Notes under the pieces: generated by a model | The model's input: only the letters and a program-made list of their open reading frames with translations | What the model was told of the DNA's origin: nothing | Databases searched by the model: none | DNA from: Acidobacteriota bacterium | Lineage (GTDB): Bacteria > Acidobacteriota > UBA6911 > RPQK01 > JAJDTT01 | Assembly: GCA_965217775.1 (NCBI GenBank) | Contig: CBDCJH010000002.1 | Span: 6,016,001 to 6,080,000 of the forward strand | Direction: 5' to 3' | DNA: 64,000 bases | Part shown: positions 22,629 to 41,388 of the stretch, piece after piece | Numbering within the stretch: position 1 is the stretch's first letter | How the letters are laid out: each line of letters opens with the position of its first letter | Translations under genes and position numbers: made by a program

Positions 22629-23225
22629 ATGAAGGCGAAAACACTGGACCAAGGGGACCTGATAGAGGGCCTCAAGAGCCGGGACACCAAGGTCATCGAC
22701 ACCTTCGTGGATCAGTTTTCCCGCCCTCTCTTCGGGGTCATTCTCAACTACACCAAGAACCCGTCCGACGCCGAGGAGATCCTCCAGGACACGCTGCTCA
22801 GGGTCATCCGCAAGATCGACACCTTCCGGCAACAGAGCGATATCTGGCCCTGGATGAAGAGGATCGCCGTGAACAACAGCATCATGTGGCTCCGCAAGCG
22901 CAAGCGACAGCGGGAGATCCAATGGGACGACTGGATGCCCCGTTTCCGGGAGAACGGCGAACTGGCATACCCGATCTTCGGCTGGACCGGGGATCCGGAA
23001 GAGCTTTTCCTGAATCGGGAGCTGTCGGCGCAACTCTACCGGGCCATACAGTCCCTGCCCTTCGCATATCGGGCGCCGGTCGTGCTCCGGGATATCGACG
23101 GATATCCGATTCGGCAGATCGCTTCCCTGTTGGGGCTGAAGGAGGCCACCACCAAGACCAGGATTCATCGAGCTCGGCTCTTCTTGCGGGAGAAGTTGGC
23201 TCGCTACCATGACGGGAGGACATGA
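22629..23225 (+). CDS. ECF RNA polymerase sigma factor
   Basis: DAEEILQD, W..RIAVN, LP..YR.PVVLRD, TKTRIHRAR. Confidence 0.92.
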   Translation: MKAKTLDQGDLIEGLKSRDTKVIDTFVDQFSRPLFGVILNYTKNPSDAEEILQDTLLRVIRKIDTFRQQSDIWPWMKRIAVNNSIMWLRKRKRQREIQWDDWMPRFRENGELAYPIFGWTGDPEELFLNRELSAQLYRAIQSLPFAYRAPVVLRDIDGYPIRQIASLLGLKEATTKTRIHRARLFLREKLARYHDGRT

Positions 23226-23536
23226 ATTTCAGAAATCGGCGCTCTGAACTGCTCACCTGCAAGGAGTGCATCCACCTGCTTCTGGACTACGCCGACGGCT
23301 CCATGGTCCCCGAGGTCCGGCGCAAACTGGATGAACACCTGTCCGCCTGTCCCCCCTGTCAGCACTATCTCCGCAGCTACACTTCCTGTACGGAAATGGT
23401 TCAACAGCTACGAGACCAGGAGGCGCAAATTCCCGCGGAACTCCAGCATCGCCTCAAGTCGTTTCTGAGGGAGCAGGTGAACCTGCCGTGGCCGCAGCCA
23501 CGCCGCCGGCGGGCGAAGTGGTCCAAGAGATTCTGA
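23222..23536 (+). CDS. Zinc-finger (ZAS) anti-sigma factor
   Basis: HLSACPPC motif; ATGA overlap with the sigma gene. Confidence 0.88.
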   Translation: MNFRNRRSELLTCKECIHLLLDYADGSMVPEVRRKLDEHLSACPPCQHYLRSYTSCTEMVQQLRDQEAQIPAELQHRLKSFLREQVNLPWPQPRRRRAKWSKRF

Positions 23537-23541
23537 TCCGG

Positions 23542-23612
23542 CAGTCCGTGGTGAAAGTCGCGCGAGCACCGAGACCGTTCCTGCGCCCGCCGGACAAGGC
23601 GCGATGAGGGAG
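23542..23612 (-). mobile_element. 158-bp palindromic miniature element, half of a copy split by IS110
   Basis: Reverse complement of the 3' part of the intact copies; the other half is at 25201-25287 (71+87=158). Confidence 0.9.
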
Positions 23613-23667
23613 TATCCATGTTGCAAATCTTCCGATTTTCCAGGGATTGTTTCCTCCCTGGTTAGAC

Positions 23668-24621
23668 TCATCCGACCGCCCTGACTGGCCGCGGTGTCCA
23701 CACCCGATCCTGGCTCAGCAGGACGTTGGCCAAAATCACCATCTTGCGCATGATCGCCGTGAGCGCCACCTTCGGCGCCTTGCCCCGCTCACGCAGCTGG
23801 CGATACTTCTGGATGTAGTCCGGATTGTGTCGAATGGCGGTGAGGGCGGCCATATACAGCATCCGCCGCACCCGATGCCGGCCCCCGCGGATGAAGCGAC
23901 GTCCCTTCCAGGTCCCCGACTCCCGAGCCACCGGCGCCAGACCGGCCAAGCTGGCCACCGCCTTGGAGTCGATCTGTCCCAGTTCCGGCATCAGAGAGAG
24001 CAGGCCCGCGACCGTGACCGGACCCATTCCCGGAATCGAAGTCAGCACTTCGGCTTTGCGCGCCAGCGCCGGATCGGCTTTCAGCAACTTGCGGAACTCG
24101 CCGTCCAGGGCCCGGATCTGGCGCTCAATCTGAGCCAGCCGCTGTCGCAAATGCCGCTTCACCATCGGGTGGCGCGCGTGGTGGCTCCGGTTGCGAGCCG
24201 CCGTCCGATCCTTCACCAGCCCGTCCCGCGCCGAGATCAGTTCCTCCAACTGGCGCTGCGTGGGCGAGGACACGTCCACACGCCGCAACGGGAGCGCCTC
24301 CCCCATCCGGGCCAGGATCCGGGCATCCACCGCATCGGTCTTGGCCTCCTGGCCCAGCGCCTGCGCGAACCGCCGCGCCCGCATCGCGTTGACCCGAGCC
24401 AGCGGCAACCGAGCGGCCAGAGCTTCCTCCATCGCCCGGTGCCAGGGGCCCGTGGACTCATACACCACGCACCGGACCTCCGGTCCGATCCAGCGGGCCA
24501 GGGCCTGGAACCCTGCCGTGTCGTTGGGGAACCGCTTCGACCGTCCCGAAGGCCACTCGTGCACGTCCAAATGCGCCTTCGAGATGTCCACACCCACCGT
24601 CTTTGAGGTATCTTGAGTCAT
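23668..24621 (-). CDS. IS110 DEDD recombinase/transposase
   Basis: GVDISK, YESTG, KTDAVDA, SIPGMG, GLAP..RESG. Confidence 0.96.
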   Translation of the reverse strand: MTQDTSKTVGVDISKAHLDVHEWPSGRSKRFPNDTAGFQALARWIGPEVRCVVYESTGPWHRAMEEALAARLPLARVNAMRARRFAQALGQEAKTDAVDARILARMGEALPLRRVDVSSPTQRQLEELISARDGLVKDRTAARNRSHHARHPMVKRHLRQRLAQIERQIRALDGEFRKLLKADPALARKAEVLTSIPGMGPVTVAGLLSLMPELGQIDSKAVASLAGLAPVARESGTWKGRRFIRGGRHRVRRMLYMAALTAIRHNPDYIQKYRQLRERGKAPKVALTAIMRKMVILANVLLSQDRVWTPRPVRAVG

Positions 24622-24629
24622 CTTTCCTT

Positions 24630-24790
24630 CCTCCTGTGCTTGTCGTGCGAGCCTTGACGCTCACGTATCCATTCAGGACGTTGGGAAAGACGGTGGCGGC
24701 CCCACTCCCTCCCGGCCCTTGACGGCCGGCATACATAACGGCCCGACCACCGCCGCCGAGGCGCCTCTGGCCAGAGGCGCCTCGGATGGA
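24630..24790 (-). ncRNA. Predicted IS110 bridge RNA
   Basis: 5' 30-bp palindrome, then two stem-internal loop-hairpin modules both capped by GTCAAG; loop strands match the target and donor junctions. Confidence 0.75.
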
Positions 24791-25053
24791 TCCTCCCAAA
24801 AGATCCCAACCCGTATCGGAATAACCCACCAGAAATCATGCCGGCGCCACCGAGCCAAGCCTGGACGATGGCTGGGTCACGGCCCTGCGCCTGCTGTCGC
24901 CACTGGCGGCGTTGACGGGGGCAGGGGGGGCCGGCCCCCCCTGAGACCCCCCGGATGCAAAGAGACACATACCCACTTGAAATCCCTGAAACGAGAGCCC
25001 CGAGGCCCCCTCGTCACCCGGAACCCGCCTGTGGAAAATCAAAGATTTCCCAC

Positions 25054-25200
25054 AGGGTGCTCCCTTTTTGCTGACACCACAATCTGTACCCCCCCAAGAA
25101 GAAAGACAGACAAGAAATAACAGACAAGGGTGCTCCCTTTTTGCTGACACCACAATCTGTACCCCCCAAGAAGAAAGACAGACAAGAAATAACAGACAAG
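25054..25200. repeat. Two-copy ~73-bp tandem duplication of the IS110 left end
   Basis: 25054-25126 and 25127-25198 are identical except for one C in a homopolymer. Confidence 0.92.
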
Positions 25201-25287
25201 CATACCGGGAGTATGTGACCGAGTCGCAACGCAGTCCGCCGGGATGCAGGGACGGTCGAATGCCGTGACGACTTTTGCCACGGACTG
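25201..25287 (-). mobile_element. 158-bp palindromic miniature element, other half of the split copy
   Basis: Reverse complement of the 5' part of the intact copies. Confidence 0.9.
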
Positions 25288-25303
25288 CCGAGACGCGGCG
25301 GGA

Positions 25304-26323
25304 TCAGAGAGACAGGCTCTCCACCTCCCGGGCCAGCTTCGAGTCGACGTTGGCGCCGCTGGCAATGAGGCAGACGCTGTCCCAGGACCAGGGTTCGCCG
25401 GCTCTCGACTGCCGCCGGAGCTTCAGGGCCGCGGCCAGGGCGGCGGCGCCGGCGCCCTCGGGCAAGGTCCCCGTGACCTCCTGGAAGAGGCGCATGGCTC
25501 GCTTCAACTCGGTTTCGGAGACCAGAACCATCCGGTCCACCACCTCCAGCATCAGCTCCACGGCTTCGGGGATGGCGACTCTGACCGCCATGCCGCCGGC
25601 GAAGGTTTCGGCTGTGGCGGTGTCCGTCGGCCTGCCGTTGGCGAAGGACAAGGCCATGCAGGGAGCTTCTTCCGACTGGATCCCGATGATCTGAACCGCC
25701 GGGTTCGCCGCCTTCAGACTGCTGGCGAGCCCTCCGATCAGCGCGCCGTTTCCGACCGGTACGAAGACCGCCTCCAAGCCGGGCTGCTGGGTGGCCAGCT
25801 CCAGCCCTATGGTCGAAGTTCCCTCGACGATCCGGGCCGACTTCCCATCCTCGATGAAACGATGACCCGGTTCAAAATCTCGTGCCAGCAACAATTCCTT
25901 GCCTTCGTCCAGGTCCCGTCCCAGCAGCTCCAGATCGGCGCCGAACTCCCGGATCAGCGCCAACTTGCTCTCATCCGCCCCCACCGGCGCCACCACGGTC
26001 AGCGCCATCCCGTACTGCCGGCAGGCGTAGGCCATGGCCGCACCATGGTTCCCGGTCGAAACCGTATAGAGCCGGGAGATTTCGGGATCGGAAACCAGAT
26101 CGGCCACCAGGTTCAAGGCGCCGCGGATCTTGAAGGATCGGACCGGACTCTCGTACTCATGCTTGACGTAGACTTTGGTCCCCAGGAGCCGGGACAGGTC
26201 ATCCTCCAGGGTCAAACGAGTCGGCGGCACCCACCGGCGGACCTCTTCCAATGCGGCCAGCGATCGCTCCGGCGACGGTCTCAGCCCGGCCATTTCAGCA
26301 CCACCCCCGCCTTGGGCGTTCAC
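25304..26323 (-). CDS. PLP-dependent threonine/serine dehydratase family
   Basis: SFKIRGA, STGNHG, VPVGNGALI, SGAN. Confidence 0.9.
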   Translation of the reverse strand: MNAQGGGGAEMAGLRPSPERSLAALEEVRRWVPPTRLTLEDDLSRLLGTKVYVKHEYESPVRSFKIRGALNLVADLVSDPEISRLYTVSTGNHGAAMAYACRQYGMALTVVAPVGADESKLALIREFGADLELLGRDLDEGKELLLARDFEPGHRFIEDGKSARIVEGTSTIGLELATQQPGLEAVFVPVGNGALIGGLASSLKAANPAVQIIGIQSEEAPCMALSFANGRPTDTATAETFAGGMAVRVAIPEAVELMLEVVDRMVLVSETELKRAMRLFQEVTGTLPEGAGAAALAAALKLRRQSRAGEPWSWDSVCLIASGANVDSKLAREVESLSL

Positions 26324-38953: not shown

Positions 38954-40810
38954 ATGACAGCCCGTGGCAAAAGTCGTCACGGCATTCGACCGTCCCTGCA
39001 TCCCGGCGGACTGCGTTGCGATTCGGGCACATACTCCCGGTATGCACCCGAATCGCGCCTTGTCCGGCGGGCGCAGGAACGGTCTCGGTGCTCGCGGGAC
39101 TTTCACCACGGACTGATGACGCCTGAGTCACAGAACGTCGAGTGGAAGTCGTCCTGGCGGGACGAGTTCCTGAAGTGGATCTGCGGTTTCGCCAACGCCC
39201 AGGGCGGTGTCCTCGAGATCGGCCGGAACGACTGCGGCGAGGTCGTCGGGGTCAGCGACGTTCTGCGCCTGCTTGAGGAGATTCCCAACAAGGCGCAGTC
39301 TCTCCTCGGCATCGTTGTCGATATCGACCTGAAATCGGAGCATGGACGCGAGTACCTGCAGATCGGCGTCAAGCCCCATCCCAATCCGATCAGCTATCGG
39401 GGCAAGTTCCACTATCGGTCCGGGAGCACGAGCCAGGTCCTTCGGGGCGCCTCGCTCACGCGCTTCCTGCTGGAACGGCAGGGGCGGACATGGGACGATG
39501 GGGCGATCCCGGGGGTCCGCATGCGCGACTTGGACGGACACGCGCTGGATGACTTCCGGGAACGCGCTTCCGTCAGCGGCCGCCTGAACCAGAACATTCT
39601 CCGCGCATCGGACTCCGAGGTCATCGAGAGCTTGCGCCTTCGCGAGGGCCGGCACCTGAAGCGCGCTGCCGTCCTGCTCTTCCACCCGGAACCGGGCGCC
39701 TTCTTTCGGGAAGCCTATCTCAACAGCCCGTGGCAAAAGTCGTCGCGGCATTCGACCGTCCCTGCATCCCGGCGGACTGCGTTGCGATTCGGTCACATAC
39801 TCCCGGTATGCTCCCGAATCGCGCCTTGTCCGGCGGGCGCAGGAACGGTCTCGGTGCTCGCGAGACTTTCACCACGGACTGTCAAGATCGGGTATTTTCG
39901 CGGCGCCGACATCATGTATCAGGATACGGTGGAGGGCGATCTCTTCTCCCAGGTGGAGCGCGCCATGGACCTCCTCTACTCCAAGTACTCGCGCGCGCTG
40001 ATTTCGTACGACGACGTTTACCGGGTCGAGACTCACCCCGTGCCCTACGAGGCCATGCGCGAAGCGGTCACAAACGCGGTCATCCATCGCGACTACGCAG
40101 TCCCCGTACCCATTCAGATCCGTGTCCATGACGACCGCGTGGCCATCTGGAATGCGGGGCGGCTCCCGACGGGGTGGTCGCTGGAGAATCTGACCGGTGA
40201 GCACGCGTCACGGCCGTACAACCCGGCGATCGCGGACGCTTTCTTTGGCGCAGGCCTGATCGAAGCCTGGGGTCGCGGGATCCGCCGGATCAGGCAGGCA
40301 TGTGAGGACGCGGGTAACCCGGTGCCCCGTTGGCGGATCGAGCCCGGCGGTCTGTGGGTCGAATTCCCGTTTTCTGCCGCGTACCTGGCCAAAGACGCTC
40401 GGTTGCGCCGAGCGGGAAATCAGCCAGAAAACCACCAGAAAACCACCAGAAAAGACGGTCAACAGCCAGAAAAAGGCCAGAAAACCGCCGGAGAAGTCCG
40501 GGAAGAGGCGTCCGGAGACCCTGAAGACCACCAGAAACGAGTAGGATCAGCCAGAAAACCGCCAGAAACCCCGTCCCTTTACGACCGTATTCTCGCTCTT
40601 CTCCGTAGGCAGCCATCCATCAGCCGCCGCGAAATGGCCGCCACGCTCGGCACCACCACGTCCACCGTCCGGTACCGGCTGGACAAGTTGCGCGCGGCCG
40701 GGAAGATAGAGCGGGTCGGCCCCGACAAGGGCGGGTACTGGAAGGTGCAGGGCGGGTCCACCACCGATCGCGATCCTTCTCCCGAACCCGGCTCCGGGAA
40801 CGCCCGATGA
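38954..40810 (+). CDS. AlbA_2/Schlafen-domain, RecG-like ATP-binding, wHTH protein with two in-frame element insertions
   Basis: ESQNVEWK..ICGFANAQGG, REAVTNAVIHRDY, NP.IA..IEAWGRG, C-terminal HTH; alternative start at 39116. Confidence 0.85.
   Translation: MTARGKSRHGIRPSLHPGGLRCDSGTYSRYAPESRLVRRAQERSRCSRDFHHGLMTPESQNVEWKSSWRDEFLKWICGFANAQGGVLEIGRNDCGEVVGVSDVLRLLEEIPNKAQSLLGIVVDIDLKSEHGREYLQIGVKPHPNPISYRGKFHYRSGSTSQVLRGASLTRFLLERQGRTWDDGAIPGVRMRDLDGHALDDFRERASVSGRLNQNILRASDSEVIESLRLREGRHLKRAAVLLFHPEPGAFFREAYLNSPWQKSSRHSTVPASRRTALRFGHILPVCSRIAPCPAGAGTVSVLARLSPRTVKIGYFRGADIMYQDTVEGDLFSQVERAMDLLYSKYSRALISYDDVYRVETHPVPYEAMREAVTNAVIHRDYAVPVPIQIRVHDDRVAIWNAGRLPTGWSLENLTGEHASRPYNPAIADAFFGAGLIEAWGRGIRRIRQACEDAGNPVPRWRIEPGGLWVEFPFSAAYLAKDARLRRAGNQPENHQKTTRKDGQQPEKGQKTAGEVREEASGDPEDHQKRVGSARKPPETPSLYDRILALLRRQPSISRREMAATLGTTTSTVRYRLDKLRAAGKIERVGPDKGGYWKVQGGSTTDRDPSPEPGSGNAR
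38958..39115 (+). mobile_element. 158-bp palindromic miniature element (target duplication ATGA)
   Basis: Ends CAGCCCGTGGCAAAAGTC / GACTTTCACCACGGACTG; ATGA at 38954-57 and 39116-19. Confidence 0.93.
39724..39881 (+). mobile_element. 158-bp palindromic miniature element (target duplication TCAA), in frame within the CDS
   Basis: TCAA at 39720-23 and 39882-85; splits AYL|KIGYF. Confidence 0.93.
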
Positions 40811-41388
40811 CTCCCGTCGGCGAGGTCGAGGCTCGCACTCACCGCCGGGTCATTGCCCACTTCCAGCACCACCTCGGCTATCAGCCCGTGGCAAAAGTCG
40901 TCACGGCATTCGACCGTCCCTGCATCCCGGCGGACTGCGTTGCTATCGGCTCACATACTCCCGGTATGCTCCCTCCGAAGCGCCTTGTCCGGCGGGCGCA
41001 GGAACGGTCTCGGTGCTCGCGCGACTTTCACCACGGACTGCTATACTTTCCTCGGCAACTGGCACGAAGGTCAGAACAACCGAAACATCGAAGCCGACTA
41101 TCTCAGGCGATTCCTCGCGGGCCAGGGTCACGACCCCGCCATCATCCCCGGCTCGAACCTGATCGGCTTCATCGGCACGCCGCTCCTCAAATCCGACAAG
41201 CAGCGCAGCGTCGAGACCTTCGGACCATACATCCACACCTACAAGTCCGACGAAGCGGTAGGCGATGAGGTGGTGCTGGACTTGCGCTACGAGGCACGCG
41301 GCATCGACCATGACATCTCCTCCGAGGCAAAGATCGACCAATGGTTGACCTGAAGACTCGGGGATTGAGCGACCTGGCCCGCGCGCAG
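40807..41388 (+). pseudogene. hsdR remnant, paralogue of 32901-36056
   Basis: N-terminus joined at GCCATC to the PG..LIGF.GTP region; carries an element insertion and is truncated. Confidence 0.88.
40882..41040 (+). mobile_element. 159-bp variant of the palindromic miniature element (target duplication CTAT)
   Basis: CTAT at 40878-81 and 41041-44. Confidence 0.93.

What the first reader, a model, noticed from the sequence alone, without database searches (positions are those of the whole stretch)
23606..25205. IS110 bridge RNA readable from sequence and programmed against a palindromic miniature element
Seen (minus strand): the reconstructed target is GGTATG-CT-CCCTC and the reconstructed circle junction is ATGGATA-CT-TGTC. 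The non-coding region upstream of the recombinase has a 30-bp palindrome (24756-24785) and two loop modules, both capped by GTCAAG. Module 1 carries GTATGC (24729-34, left target) and GAGGGAG (24705-11, reverse complement of the right target). Module 2 carries ATGGATAC (24665-72, left donor) and GACAAG (24639-44, reverse complement of the right donor). Established: this target-loop then donor-loop layout with a CT core is the IS110/IS621 bridge RNA architecture. Inference: this is a complete programmable recombinase (317 aa) that uses another mobile repeat as a multicopy landing pad.
Basis: partly seen in the sequence, partly recalled or inferred. Interest (0 to 1): 0.88.

Follow-up and report, generated by a model that had tools for sequence, protein, structure and literature searches.

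The report
Bridge-RNA insertion sequence aimed at a MITE
This is an intact IS110-type jumping gene whose own guide RNA spells out both its ends and its landing site, a short sequence at the tip of a 158-bp miniature transposon; it is a clear natural example of a mechanism already described in 2024.

Summary
On the minus strand there is a 1588-bp IS110-group element. It has a 317-aa DEDD/Ser recombinase with all five catalytic residues aligned to IS621. It also has a bridge-RNA-like region upstream of the gene: a 30-bp palindrome hairpin, a target loop (GUAUGC / GAGGGAG) and a donor loop (AUGGAUAC / GACAAG).

The loops match the flanks (GGTATG-CT-CCCTC) and the element's ends (ATGGATA-CT-TGTC). 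The genome holds 4 copies, all at the same position of a 158-bp MITE. That MITE has 213 near-full copies, TIRs and a 4-bp TSD. The exact 13-mer target occurs 86 times.

Across 12 distinct related elements, guide loops covary with their own flanks: cognate score 125 against 66.7±7.3 when shuffled, reached in 0 of 100,000 permutations. Contigs from four sponge metatranscriptome runs (one study) give a weak hint of a discrete ~155-nt RNA over the predicted bridge RNA.

The mechanism is the published IS110/IS621 one, and repeat targeting is known, so this is a new member of a known kind.

Extras:
- a 72/73-bp tandem duplication of the left-end tip in two copies;
- an unusually long left end;
- a sister family with the same donor code but different target loops;
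- fused composite elements in relatives.

No circle junction or RNA ends were seen.

The parts
23611..25200 (-). IS110-group insertion sequence, shown with the CT core at both junctions (1590 nt; the element is 1588 bp counting one CT). Copies C and D elsewhere in the genome are 1516 bp.
25199..25200 (-). CT core at the left junction (LT-CT-RD: GGTATG-CT-TGTC)
23611..23612 (-). CT core at the right junction (LD-CT-RT: ATGGATA-CT-CCCTC)
25054..25200 (-). Tandem duplication (72/73-bp unit) of the left-end tip. Each unit starts with CT-TGTC. Present in copies A (window) and B. Absent from copies C and D and from the orthologue in another species.
24790..25053 (-). Left-end extension between the tip and the bridge RNA (264 nt). 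It contains a 13-bp-stem hairpin (25028-25056) and a G/C palindrome (24922-24943). Function unknown.
24756..24785 (-). 5' stem-loop of the bridge RNA (perfect 15+15 palindrome)
24689..24755 (-). Target-binding module: basal stem, internal loops, and a top hairpin capped by GUCAAG
24729..24734 (-). Left target guide GUAUGC (same sequence as LT GTATG plus core C)
24705..24711 (-). Right target guide GAGGGAG (reverse complement of CT-CCCTC). The next two bases, UG (24704-24703), sit where IS621 has its handshake guide.
   Evidence: position by analogy with PMC11208158
24632..24678 (-). Donor-binding module: basal stem UCCUG/CAGGA, internal loops, and a top hairpin capped by GUCAAG. The 3' strand of the basal stem overlaps the AGGAGG ribosome-binding site.
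24665..24672 (-). Left donor guide AUGGAUAC (same sequence as LD ATGGATA plus core C)
24639..24644 (-). Right donor guide GACAAG (reverse complement of CT-TGTC). The next two bases, CA (24638-24637), are complementary to target positions TG next to the core.
23668..24621 (-). Recombinase gene, 317 aa: DEDD RuvC-like domain plus Tnp domain with Ser235
23613..23667 (-). Right end (55 nt). It holds a -35-like TTGCAA (23626-23621). In a circle this would lie 17 nt from TATTTC (25191-25186) in the left-end tip.
   Evidence: 7 of 12 consensus positions
25201..25290 (-). First part of the host MITE (TIR at 25269-25290), ending in LT GGTATG
23539..23610 (-). Second part of the host MITE, starting with RT CCCTC and ending in the TIR at 23539-23560
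40882..41039 (+). Unoccupied copy of the same MITE in this window, flanked by CTAT/CTAT, with an intact target GGTATG-CT-CCCTC at 40963-40975

Best explanation
This is an intact, recently active insertion sequence of the IS110 group.

The last ~170 nt of its left end encode a bridge RNA with three parts: a 5' hairpin, a target-binding loop and a donor-binding loop.

- The donor loop (AUGGAUAC / GACAAG) pairs with the joined ends of the excised circle, ATGGATA-CT-TGTC.
- The target loop (GUAUGC / GAGGGAG) pairs with GTATG-CT-CCCTC. That sequence sits just 3' of a small apical stem-loop of a 158-bp MITE.

The DEDD/Ser recombinase, loaded with this RNA, would exchange strands at the CT core and insert the circle without a target duplication.

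Because the MITE is multicopy, the element has about 86-89 neutral landing sites in this genome. It occupies 4 of them.

Shown here: the anatomy, the complementarity, the identical insertion site of all copies, and the covariation of guides with flanks across relatives.

Inferred from IS621 work: RNA-guided strand exchange, the circular intermediate, and the handshake pairing.
For: **Protein.** PF01548 and PF02371 are present. The closest solved structures are the ISCro4 and IS621 transposases (E about 1e-27). All five catalytic residues plus Gly align with IS621.

**RNA structure.**
- The fold gives a hairpin plus two internal-loop modules, z -4.32.
- A consensus fold of 14 related sequences predicts 20 pairs, covering both basal stems and the donor-loop top hairpin; 10 of the 20 have compensatory changes.

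**Complementarity.** LTG matches 6 nt, RTG 7 nt, LDG 8 nt and RDG 6 nt, each including core bases. The four-word pattern occurs 4 times in 6.43 Mb, only in the 4 copies.

**Insertion sites.**
- The 4 copies are 99.7-100% identical and sit at the same MITE position in the same orientation.
- Their MITE halves differ at 3-4 of 156 positions, while the IS bodies differ at 1-4 of 1500. This argues for independent insertions into pre-existing MITE copies.
- An orthologue (87-88% aa) in an Acidobacteriota MAG sits at the same site in other MITE copies.
- Empty sites read LT-CT-RT.

**Covariation.**
- A covariance model found bridge-RNA matches in 22 places of 40 loci.
- For 12 distinct bridge RNAs, the cognate guide-flank score is 125 against a permuted 66.7±7.3, reached in 0 of 100,000 permutations.
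- The cognate flank is best or tied for LT in 10 of 12 and for RT in 7 of 12.
- Donor guides also change together with the ends: CGGATGC with the end CGGATG-CT, and CAGTTGC with the end CAGTTG-CT.

**RNA (weak hint).** In 3 of 4 metatranscriptome runs of one study, a separate contig covers 24637/24638/24647 to 24791/24792. Its contig depth is 25-42, against 2-9 for the ORF contigs.
Against: - No RNA ends, strand or level can be read from contigs, and all four RNA runs belong to one study.
- No back-joint (circle junction) appeared in those runs.
- The sigma-70 scan found no promoter in 23550-25260. The promoter that a circle would rebuild matches only 7 of 12 consensus positions here, against 9-10 of 12 in five of the more distant relatives (L033, L034, L035, L041, L038).
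- The bridge RNA starts about 374-446 nt from the left-end tip, against 49 nt in the sister family. A junction transcript would therefore need processing, or an internal promoter must exist.
- The left target guide is short: 6 nt, against 9 in IS621 (PMC11208160).
- In the covariation test, RT is not best for its cognate in 5 of 12. The sequences are kin, so the permutation figure overstates independence.
- Only 4 of about 89 sites are occupied.
- Rfam has no matching family.
Confidence: 0.9

Rival explanations
1. The four copies did not arise by RNA-guided insertion. One MITE that had once been hit by the IS was then copied around as a 1.7-kb MITE+IS composite by the MITE's own transposase.
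For: Every IS copy is bracketed by complete MITE ends. Three of the four composites have identical 4-bp flanks: TTAA, CTAG and TTAC. A MITE transposase acting on the outer TIRs would produce exactly that.
Against: - The MITE halves around the four copies differ from each other about ten times more (3-4 of 156) than the IS bodies do (1-4 of 1500).
- Ordinary empty MITE copies have the same kind of 4-bp flanks (154 of 213), so the flanks are explained by the MITE alone.
- The guide loops match the junctions, and they covary with flanks in relatives that use other targets.
Confidence: 0.04
2. The structured region is only a 5' leader that regulates translation of the recombinase, and the matches between loops and flanks are coincidence.
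For: The 3' strand of the donor-module basal stem overlaps the AGGAGG ribosome-binding site just before the ATG. Folding could therefore affect translation.
Against: Four separate words of 6-8 nt match the four half-sites, on the strands and in the order expected. The same positions change together with the flanks in 12 distinct elements. The two roles are not exclusive.
Confidence: 0.02
3. The element is a correct bridge-RNA IS by descent but is no longer mobile in this genome. For example, the long left end and weak junction promoter may prevent guide expression.
For: - Only 4 of about 89 target sites are filled.
- The junction promoter matches 7 of 12 positions.
- No circle joint was seen in RNA contigs.
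Against: - The copies are 99.7-100% identical, with intact ORFs and intact catalytic residues.
- A derived form with the duplicated tip exists at two loci, so it moved after the duplication.
- Contigs from RNA libraries cover the bridge-RNA region and the ORF (weak).
Confidence: 0.12

Closest known systems
IS621 of Escherichia coli (IS110 group; Durrant et al. 2024, PMC11208160; Hiraizumi et al. 2024, PMC11208158)
   Same: - The same two protein domains and catalytic residues.
- A bridge RNA in the left end with a 5' stem-loop, then a target loop, then a donor loop.
- A CT core contained in all four guide pairings.
- Insertion into a multicopy palindromic repeat.
- A -35 box in the right end and a -10 box in the left-end tip.
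   Different: - phmmer aligns the proteins at E 8e-28 (100.8 bits) over residues 9-301; no identity figure was computed.
- The left target guide is 6 nt instead of 9, and the right target guide is 7 nt instead of 4.
- The left end is 505-577 nt instead of 191 nt, with the RNA at its inner end.
- The junction promoter is weak by consensus.
- The target is a TIR/TSD-forming MITE rather than a REP.
ISPpu10 / ISPpu9 of Pseudomonas putida (IS110 family; bioRxiv 10.64898/2026.03.19.712850, abstract only; PMC12288879, search listing only)
   Same: All insertions fall in copies of one conserved intergenic repeat. A stem-loop lies 5' of the paired target. Here, in 6 of 12 related elements, LT is the 3' arm of a perfect stem of 5 bp or more that abuts the core, against 78 of 2611 control CT sites.
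   Different: Here the stem includes the left target itself, and the repeat is a mobile MITE. A structural requirement was not tested.
IS1111-group elements such as IS4321/IS5075, which insert in the terminal repeats of Tn21-family transposons (Partridge and Hall 2003; seen only as a reference-list entry of PMC11208160)
   Same: A DEDD recombinase element that uses another mobile element as its landing site.
   Different: Those carry the guide RNA in the right end and have long subterminal inverted repeats. This element has the RNA in the left end and only a 3-4-bp inverted repeat (ACA...TGT) around the donor site.
Expanded and tandemly duplicated IS110 loci with half-match boundaries (bioRxiv 10.64898/2026.08.14.744561, abstract and section 8; 10.64898/2026.08.31.748434, abstract)
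   Same: - The duplicated left-end tip has a boundary with an RD-only match (GCACC-CT-TGTC).
- The sister family's copies E and H carry a nested 1845-bp IS.
- Relatives hold tandem fused elements.
   Different: These are small-scale events with no cargo genes. That the recombinase made the duplication is not shown.

Membership tests
IS110 family, IS110 group (bridge-RNA recombinase element) | [quoted passage not shown] | tested here: met
   PF01548 E 1.5e-19 over residues 9-147; PF02371 E 8.1e-21 over residues 191-273
IS110 family, IS110 group (bridge-RNA recombinase element) | Catalytic D, E, D, D and Ser (IS621 D11, E60, D102, D105, S241) | tested here: met
   D12, E55, D96, D99 and S235 (with G236) align to them in the phmmer alignment with 8wt6_A. 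The chain numbering is +2 relative to the paper.
IS110 family, IS110 group (bridge-RNA recombinase element) | Non-coding RNA encoded in the left end upstream of the gene, with a 5' stem-loop and two stem-loops with internal loops | tested here: met
   Single-sequence fold. Consensus fold of 14 relatives: 20 pairs, 10 with compensatory changes.
IS110 family, IS110 group (bridge-RNA recombinase element) | First loop complementary to the target half-sites and second loop to the donor half-sites, with the core dinucleotide in each pairing | tested here: met
   LTG 6, RTG 7, LDG 8 and RDG 6 nt. The C of the core is in both left guides and CT is in both right guides.
IS110 family, IS110 group (bridge-RNA recombinase element) | Guides covary with flanks across orthologues | tested here: met
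   For 12 distinct bridge RNAs, cognate score 125 against 66.7±7.3, reached in 0 of 100,000 permutations. L039 was dropped because its target loop was misaligned.
IS110 family, IS110 group (bridge-RNA recombinase element) | Insertion without target duplication or long terminal inverted repeats; the empty site equals LT-core-RT | tested here: met
   One CT at each junction. Uninterrupted MITE copies read GGTATG-CT-CCCTC.
IS110 family, IS110 group (bridge-RNA recombinase element) | Short subterminal inverted repeat flanking the donor sequence | tested here: met
   AACA ... TGTT brackets TGGATA-CT-TGTC in the joined ends, read. The criterion comes from PMC11208160 passages.
IS110 family, IS110 group (bridge-RNA recombinase element) | Circular intermediate whose junction rebuilds a promoter for the RNA | tested here: inconclusive
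   TTGCAA-17 nt-TATTTC gives 7 of 12 positions; five of the more distant relatives (L033, L034, L035, L041, L038) score 9-10 of 12. No back-joint in 4 RNA runs.
IS110 family, IS110 group (bridge-RNA recombinase element) | The RNA is made and binds the recombinase; reprogramming the loops redirects recombination | not testable with these tools
   There is only a weak hint of expression from contigs of one study.
MITE (the landing pad) | Short, non-coding, multicopy, with terminal inverted repeats and target-site duplications, and present or absent between relatives | tested here: met
   - 158 bp, 213 near-full copies
- 22-nt TIR, 91% complementary (I2)
- identical 4-bp flanks in 154 of 213 copies
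- absent from the orthologous loci of all four IS-bearing copies in the relatives examined
- found in 9 of 9 genomes of the genus

The most novel reading that the evidence does not exclude
Two IS110 lineages in this genus share one donor code (ATGGATA-CT-TGTC) but carry different target loops. Either bridge RNA could therefore act on either element's ends, and a tandem pair could move as one unit.

The composites in two sister genomes fit this. A decayed element of the window's type supplies the left tip, and an intact sister-type unit supplies the guide, the gene and the right end. The composite's flanks match the intact guide.

On this reading, the unusually long left end of the window's element, and a guide RNA made from an internal start rather than from the circle junction, would be products of such end take-over.
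Probability: 0.3. Interest if true: 0.55.

Novelty: new member of a known kind. Interest (0 to 1): 0.36.

Why it matters
This is a clean natural case in which a bridge RNA's programme can be read straight from the genome and checked against dozens of empty target sites.

It comes from an uncultured-type Acidobacteriota lineage; its DNA is also found in sponge metatranscriptome runs.

It offers:
- a compact 317-aa recombinase with a short-left/long-right guide split;
- a set of naturally reprogrammed target loops on a constant donor loop;
- material for asking how IS110 elements grow and fuse.

It does not reveal a new mechanism.

Tried and rejected
**Rfam.** An E-value-mode search of 23400-25400 gave 3 sub-threshold chance hits and no bridge-RNA family.

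**Promoter scan.** The sigma-70/terminator scan of 23550-25260 gave 0 promoter-like sites and 2 terminator-like sites, within the shuffle expectation.

**RNA runs.**
- No contig of the four runs covers 24942-25173. This is a part without cover and is not used as evidence.
- The joints 23610>25199 and similar are empty MITE copies from elsewhere, not excision products.
- No back-joint was listed.

**Autonomous parent of the MITE.** Pairs of the TIR words 400-5000 bp apart gave 13 pairs. Four are the IS-bearing MITEs. Six of the remaining nine were compared and share no internal sequence; three were not compared. No parent was found with this query.

**Occupied versus empty alleles.** I looked for an empty copy of the same MITE locus in relatives.
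- At the window locus, 6 of 7 relatives have the two flanking genes directly adjacent, with neither MITE nor IS. The seventh (L067) lacked a match to one flank.
- At the loci of copies B, C and D, none of the 11 loci examined gave any MITE hit. The flanks were adjacent in B 3 of 5, C 2 of 2 and D 2 of 4, and only partly alignable in the rest.
- So no empty-MITE allele was obtained.

**Other searches.**
- Solo copies of the 72/73-bp left-tip unit: none outside the 4 IS copies; 6 units in all.
- The ORFs of the nested 1845-bp element had no Pfam hit. NCBIfam gave an ISKra4-family match below its cut-off.
- Paper supplements are closed and were not requested. The orthologue tables of Durrant et al. 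might already list this element or a close relative. ISfinder was not available.
- Structure prediction, complex prediction, the protein-database searches and the atlas were not used because the family assignment was already clear.
- A paper search for IS110 + miniature inverted-repeat + target site listed 8 papers (listing and abstract starts only). None describes IS110 insertion into a TSD-forming MITE in what I saw. This is not a claim that it is unpublished.
Full report
**What is there.**

On the minus strand of the window, an ORF at 24621-23668 encodes a 317-aa protein. It carries the two Pfam domains of IS110-family recombinases: PF01548 (E 1.5e-19) and PF02371 (E 8.1e-21). Its nearest solved relatives are the ISCro4 and IS621 transposases (E 6e-28 and 8e-28). 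In the alignment with IS621, D12, E55, D96, D99 and S235-G236 stand opposite D11, E60, D102, D105 and S241-G242. Hiraizumi et al. show these to be essential (PMC11208158, passages read; the PDB chain is numbered +2).

The element is bounded by GGTATG-CT-TGTC on the left (core at 25200-25199) and ATGGATA-CT-CCCTC on the right (core at 23612-23611). Counting one CT it is 1588 bp.

**The RNA region.**

The 30-bp palindrome at 24756-24785 is perfect (I8).

Folding 24800-24625 as RNA gives the palindrome hairpin and then two stems, each with an internal loop and a GUCAAG-capped top hairpin.
- MFE is -93.9 kcal/mol, z -4.32, and 1 of 200 shuffles folds as well.
- The first internal loop carries GUAUGC on its 5' side and GAGGGAG on its 3' side.
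- The second carries AUGGAUAC and GACAAG.

GUAUGC repeats the left target plus the core C. GAGGGAG is the reverse complement of CT-CCCTC. AUGGAUAC repeats the left donor plus C. GACAAG is the reverse complement of CT-TGTC.

This is the strand logic Durrant et al. describe. Left guides pair with the bottom strand and right guides with the top strand. The core is included in each pairing. The order is 5' stem-loop, then target loop, then donor loop, in the left end of IS110-group elements (PMC11208160, passages read).

The two bases after each right guide (UG after the target guide, CA after the donor guide) lie where IS621 has its handshake guides. CA is complementary to the TG that precedes the core in the target. 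This is read from the sequence, and its role is inferred from PMC11208158.

The four words in this order and spacing occur 4 times in the 6.43-Mb genome, only in the copies of this element. Rfam has no matching family.

**Copies and landing site.**

The genome holds 4 copies at 99.7-100% identity. All four interrupt the same 158-bp repeat at the same position and in the same orientation.

The repeat is a true MITE.
- It has 213 near-full-length copies.
- It has 22-nt terminal inverted repeats, 91% complementary (I2).
- Its 4-bp flanks are identical in 154 of 213 copies, mostly of the form NTAN.
- As a single strand it folds into one long hairpin, z -4.47.

The target lies at the apex. GTATG is the 3' arm of a small CATAC/GTATG stem-loop, and the CT core follows it directly.

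The exact 13-mer GGTATGCTCCCTC occurs 86 times and the 12-mer 89 times. For 75 of the 12-mers, an intact left TIR lies within 100 nt upstream.

The commonest MITE variant (86 of 213) reads GTATGCACCCGA. It has a CA core and a different right half, so it is not a match.

An unoccupied MITE with the intact target lies in this same window at 40882-41039.

The MITE halves around the four IS copies differ at 3-4 of 156 positions. The IS bodies differ at 1-4 of 1500. This fits separate insertions into older MITE copies better than copying of one MITE+IS composite.

In relatives of the same genus, the orthologous loci of all four copies have neither MITE nor IS. At the window locus, the two flanking genes are adjacent in 6 of 7 relatives. 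The MITE family itself is found in 9 of 9 genomes of the genus.

**Relatives and covariation.**

- An Acidobacteriota MAG carries an orthologue (87-88% aa identity). It has the same loops and lies at the same MITE site in other MITE copies, without the duplicated tip.
- The window's genome also holds a sister family (57% aa, 66% nt identity; 4 copies). It has identical donor words and identical ends, but different target loops.
- A protein search of 401 genomes of the phylum found matches in 24 at E<=1e-30, including this genome.
- A covariance model of the two modules, built from 4 sequences, matched 22 places in 40 loci.

For 12 distinct bridge RNAs I located both junctions from the donor words. 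I then scored how much of each left flank is repeated in the 5' half of the target module, and how much of CT plus the right flank is complemented in the 3' half.
- The cognate total is 125 (LT 75, RT 50), against 66.7±7.3 for shuffled assignments. None of 100,000 shuffles reached it.
- The cognate flank is best or tied for LT in 10 of 12 and for RT in 7 of 12.
- One further element (L039) was left out because its target loop was misaligned.
- Duplicate bridge RNAs were represented by the first copy listed.
- The elements are kin, so the permutation figure overstates independence.

Donor guides change together with the ends in the more distant elements.

A consensus fold of 14 sequences predicts 20 pairs, covering both basal stems and the donor-loop top hairpin; 10 of the 20 have compensatory changes.

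In 6 of the 12, all from this genus, the left target is the 3' arm of a perfect stem of 5 bp or more that abuts the core. This is true of only 78 of 2611 other CT sites in the same loci.

**Expression.**

Four metatranscriptome runs of one sponge study hold 45-66% of the sampled words. Their contigs were laid on the stretch.
- In three runs, a separate contig covers 24637-24792, 24638-24792 or 24647-24791, at contig depth 31.4, 24.8 and 41.8.
- Contigs over the ORF have depth 2-9.
- In the fourth run, one contig spans 24453-24939 at depth 21.3.

Contigs cannot show ends, strand or level. DNA may be present in such libraries, and this is one study. It is a weak hint that a discrete RNA of the predicted extent exists, and nothing more.

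**What differs from IS621.**

- The left target guide is 6 nt rather than 9, and the right target guide is 7 nt rather than 4. Longer right guides are noted for other orthologues in PMC11208160.
- The left end is 505 nt (577 nt with the duplication), against 191 nt. The modelled RNA begins 374-446 nt from the tip, against 49 nt in the sister family.
- The promoter a circle would rebuild is TTGCAA, 17 nt, TATTTC, preceded by TG. It matches 7 of 12 consensus positions, while five of the more distant relatives (L033, L034, L035, L041, L038) reach 9-10 of 12. How this RNA is transcribed is therefore open.
- The 3' strand of the donor-module basal stem overlaps the ribosome-binding site.

**Side observations that bear on how these elements evolve.**

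- Copies A (window) and B carry a 72/73-bp tandem duplication of the left-end tip. Its internal boundary, GCACC-CT-TGTC, matches only the right donor half. The unit occurs nowhere outside the four copies. The duplicated form is at two loci, so it has moved since the duplication arose.
- Two sister genomes hold 1.8-1.87-kb composites.
  - They begin with pieces of an element of the window's type. These pieces match its positions 1-290, 424-631, 1013-1066 and, in two of the three, 1430-1508, at 76-89% identity.
  - This remnant includes a decayed donor module.
  - It is followed by an intact sister-type bridge RNA, gene and right end.
  - The composite's flanks match the intact guide.
- Two copies of the sister family carry a nested 1845-bp IS.
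- Tandem growth and half-match boundaries of IS110 loci are described in two 2026 preprints (10.64898/2026.08.14.744561, abstract and section 8; 10.64898/2026.08.31.748434, abstract).

**Verdict.**

The element is a complete IS110-group bridge-RNA insertion sequence aimed at the apex of a MITE. Both the mechanism and the use of multicopy palindromic repeats as targets are published (IS621 in REP; ISPpu9 and ISPpu10). This is therefore a new member of a known kind, well documented by internal evidence.

Direct proof is lacking for the RNA ends, the circle and reprogrammability. Supplementary tables of the cited papers, ISfinder and this scan's earlier notes could not be consulted, so prior cataloguing of this element cannot be excluded.

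Noticed in passing
window 25054-25200 (minus strand); also copy B at G000:C2:5761659-5761803: A 72/73-bp tandem duplication of the left-end tip is present in 2 of the 4 copies. Each unit begins CT-TGTC. The inner boundary GCACC-CT-TGTC matches only the right donor half. The unit is not found outside the IS copies (6 units in the genome).
   Followed up: partly
G000:C2:4662165-4665574 (E), 2679078-region (H), 1161588-region (F), 2744757-region (G); loci L005-L008: A second IS110-group family (57% aa identity to the window's) has identical donor guides and ends. Its left end is only about 180 nt. It has two natural variants of the target loop (ACCGCCGC and GUCGCCGC). Their left flanks read ACCGCCG-CT, GTCGCCG-CT or GCCGCCG-CT, at the base of REP-like hairpins.
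   Followed up: partly
L030 (G200), L032 and L055 (G088): Composite elements of 1.8-1.87 kb. An internally deleted remnant of a window-type IS (left tip, extension, decayed donor module, ORF pieces, right-end remnant) is fused upstream of an intact sister-type bridge RNA and gene. Two copies lie at different loci in one genome, so the composite moved as a unit.
   Followed up: partly
L060:1586-3430 = G000:C2:4663685-4665529, and 4 more copies in the genome: A nested 1845-bp IS sits inside the right end of sister-family copies E and H. It has a 12-bp TIR and a 9-bp direct repeat at its flanks. Its 446-aa ORF has no Pfam hit but a sub-threshold NCBIfam match to ISKra4-family transposases (E 2.4e-29).
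   Followed up: partly
whole genome; examples in window at 39724-39880 and 40882-41039: The MITE family is 158 bp with 213 near-full copies and a 4-bp NTAN-type duplication. It is present in 9 of 9 genomes of the genus. No autonomous parent with the same ends was found. Its commonest variant (86 of 213) has CA instead of the CT core at the IS target position.
   Followed up: partly
window 23222-23536 and 25304-26323: In 6 of 7 relatives of the genus, these two genes are directly adjacent, a few bases apart. The MITE and then the IS were therefore inserted into a very short spacer between convergent or neighbouring genes in this lineage.
   Followed up: yes
G000:C2:2787497-2787650 (L059 about 2198-2350): A 75-79% identical fragment of the left-end extension (hairpin GTGGGAAATC...GATTTTCCAC and following) lies next to a truncated IS1380-like transposase ORF (PF13701, N-terminal third only). 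It is probably an old remnant of a related element.
   Followed up: partly
upstream of copy E, about G000:C2:4661100-4662160 (L005 about 340-1400): A tandem array of a roughly 100-bp unit. Each unit contains the hairpin and CT-CC motif that the sister family targets, and copy E sits at the end of the array.
   Followed up: no
window 24632-24636 and 24622-24631: The 3' strand of the donor-module basal stem (CAGGA) overlaps the AGGAGG ribosome-binding site of the recombinase gene. Folding of the guide and translation of a read-through transcript may therefore be coupled.
   Followed up: no
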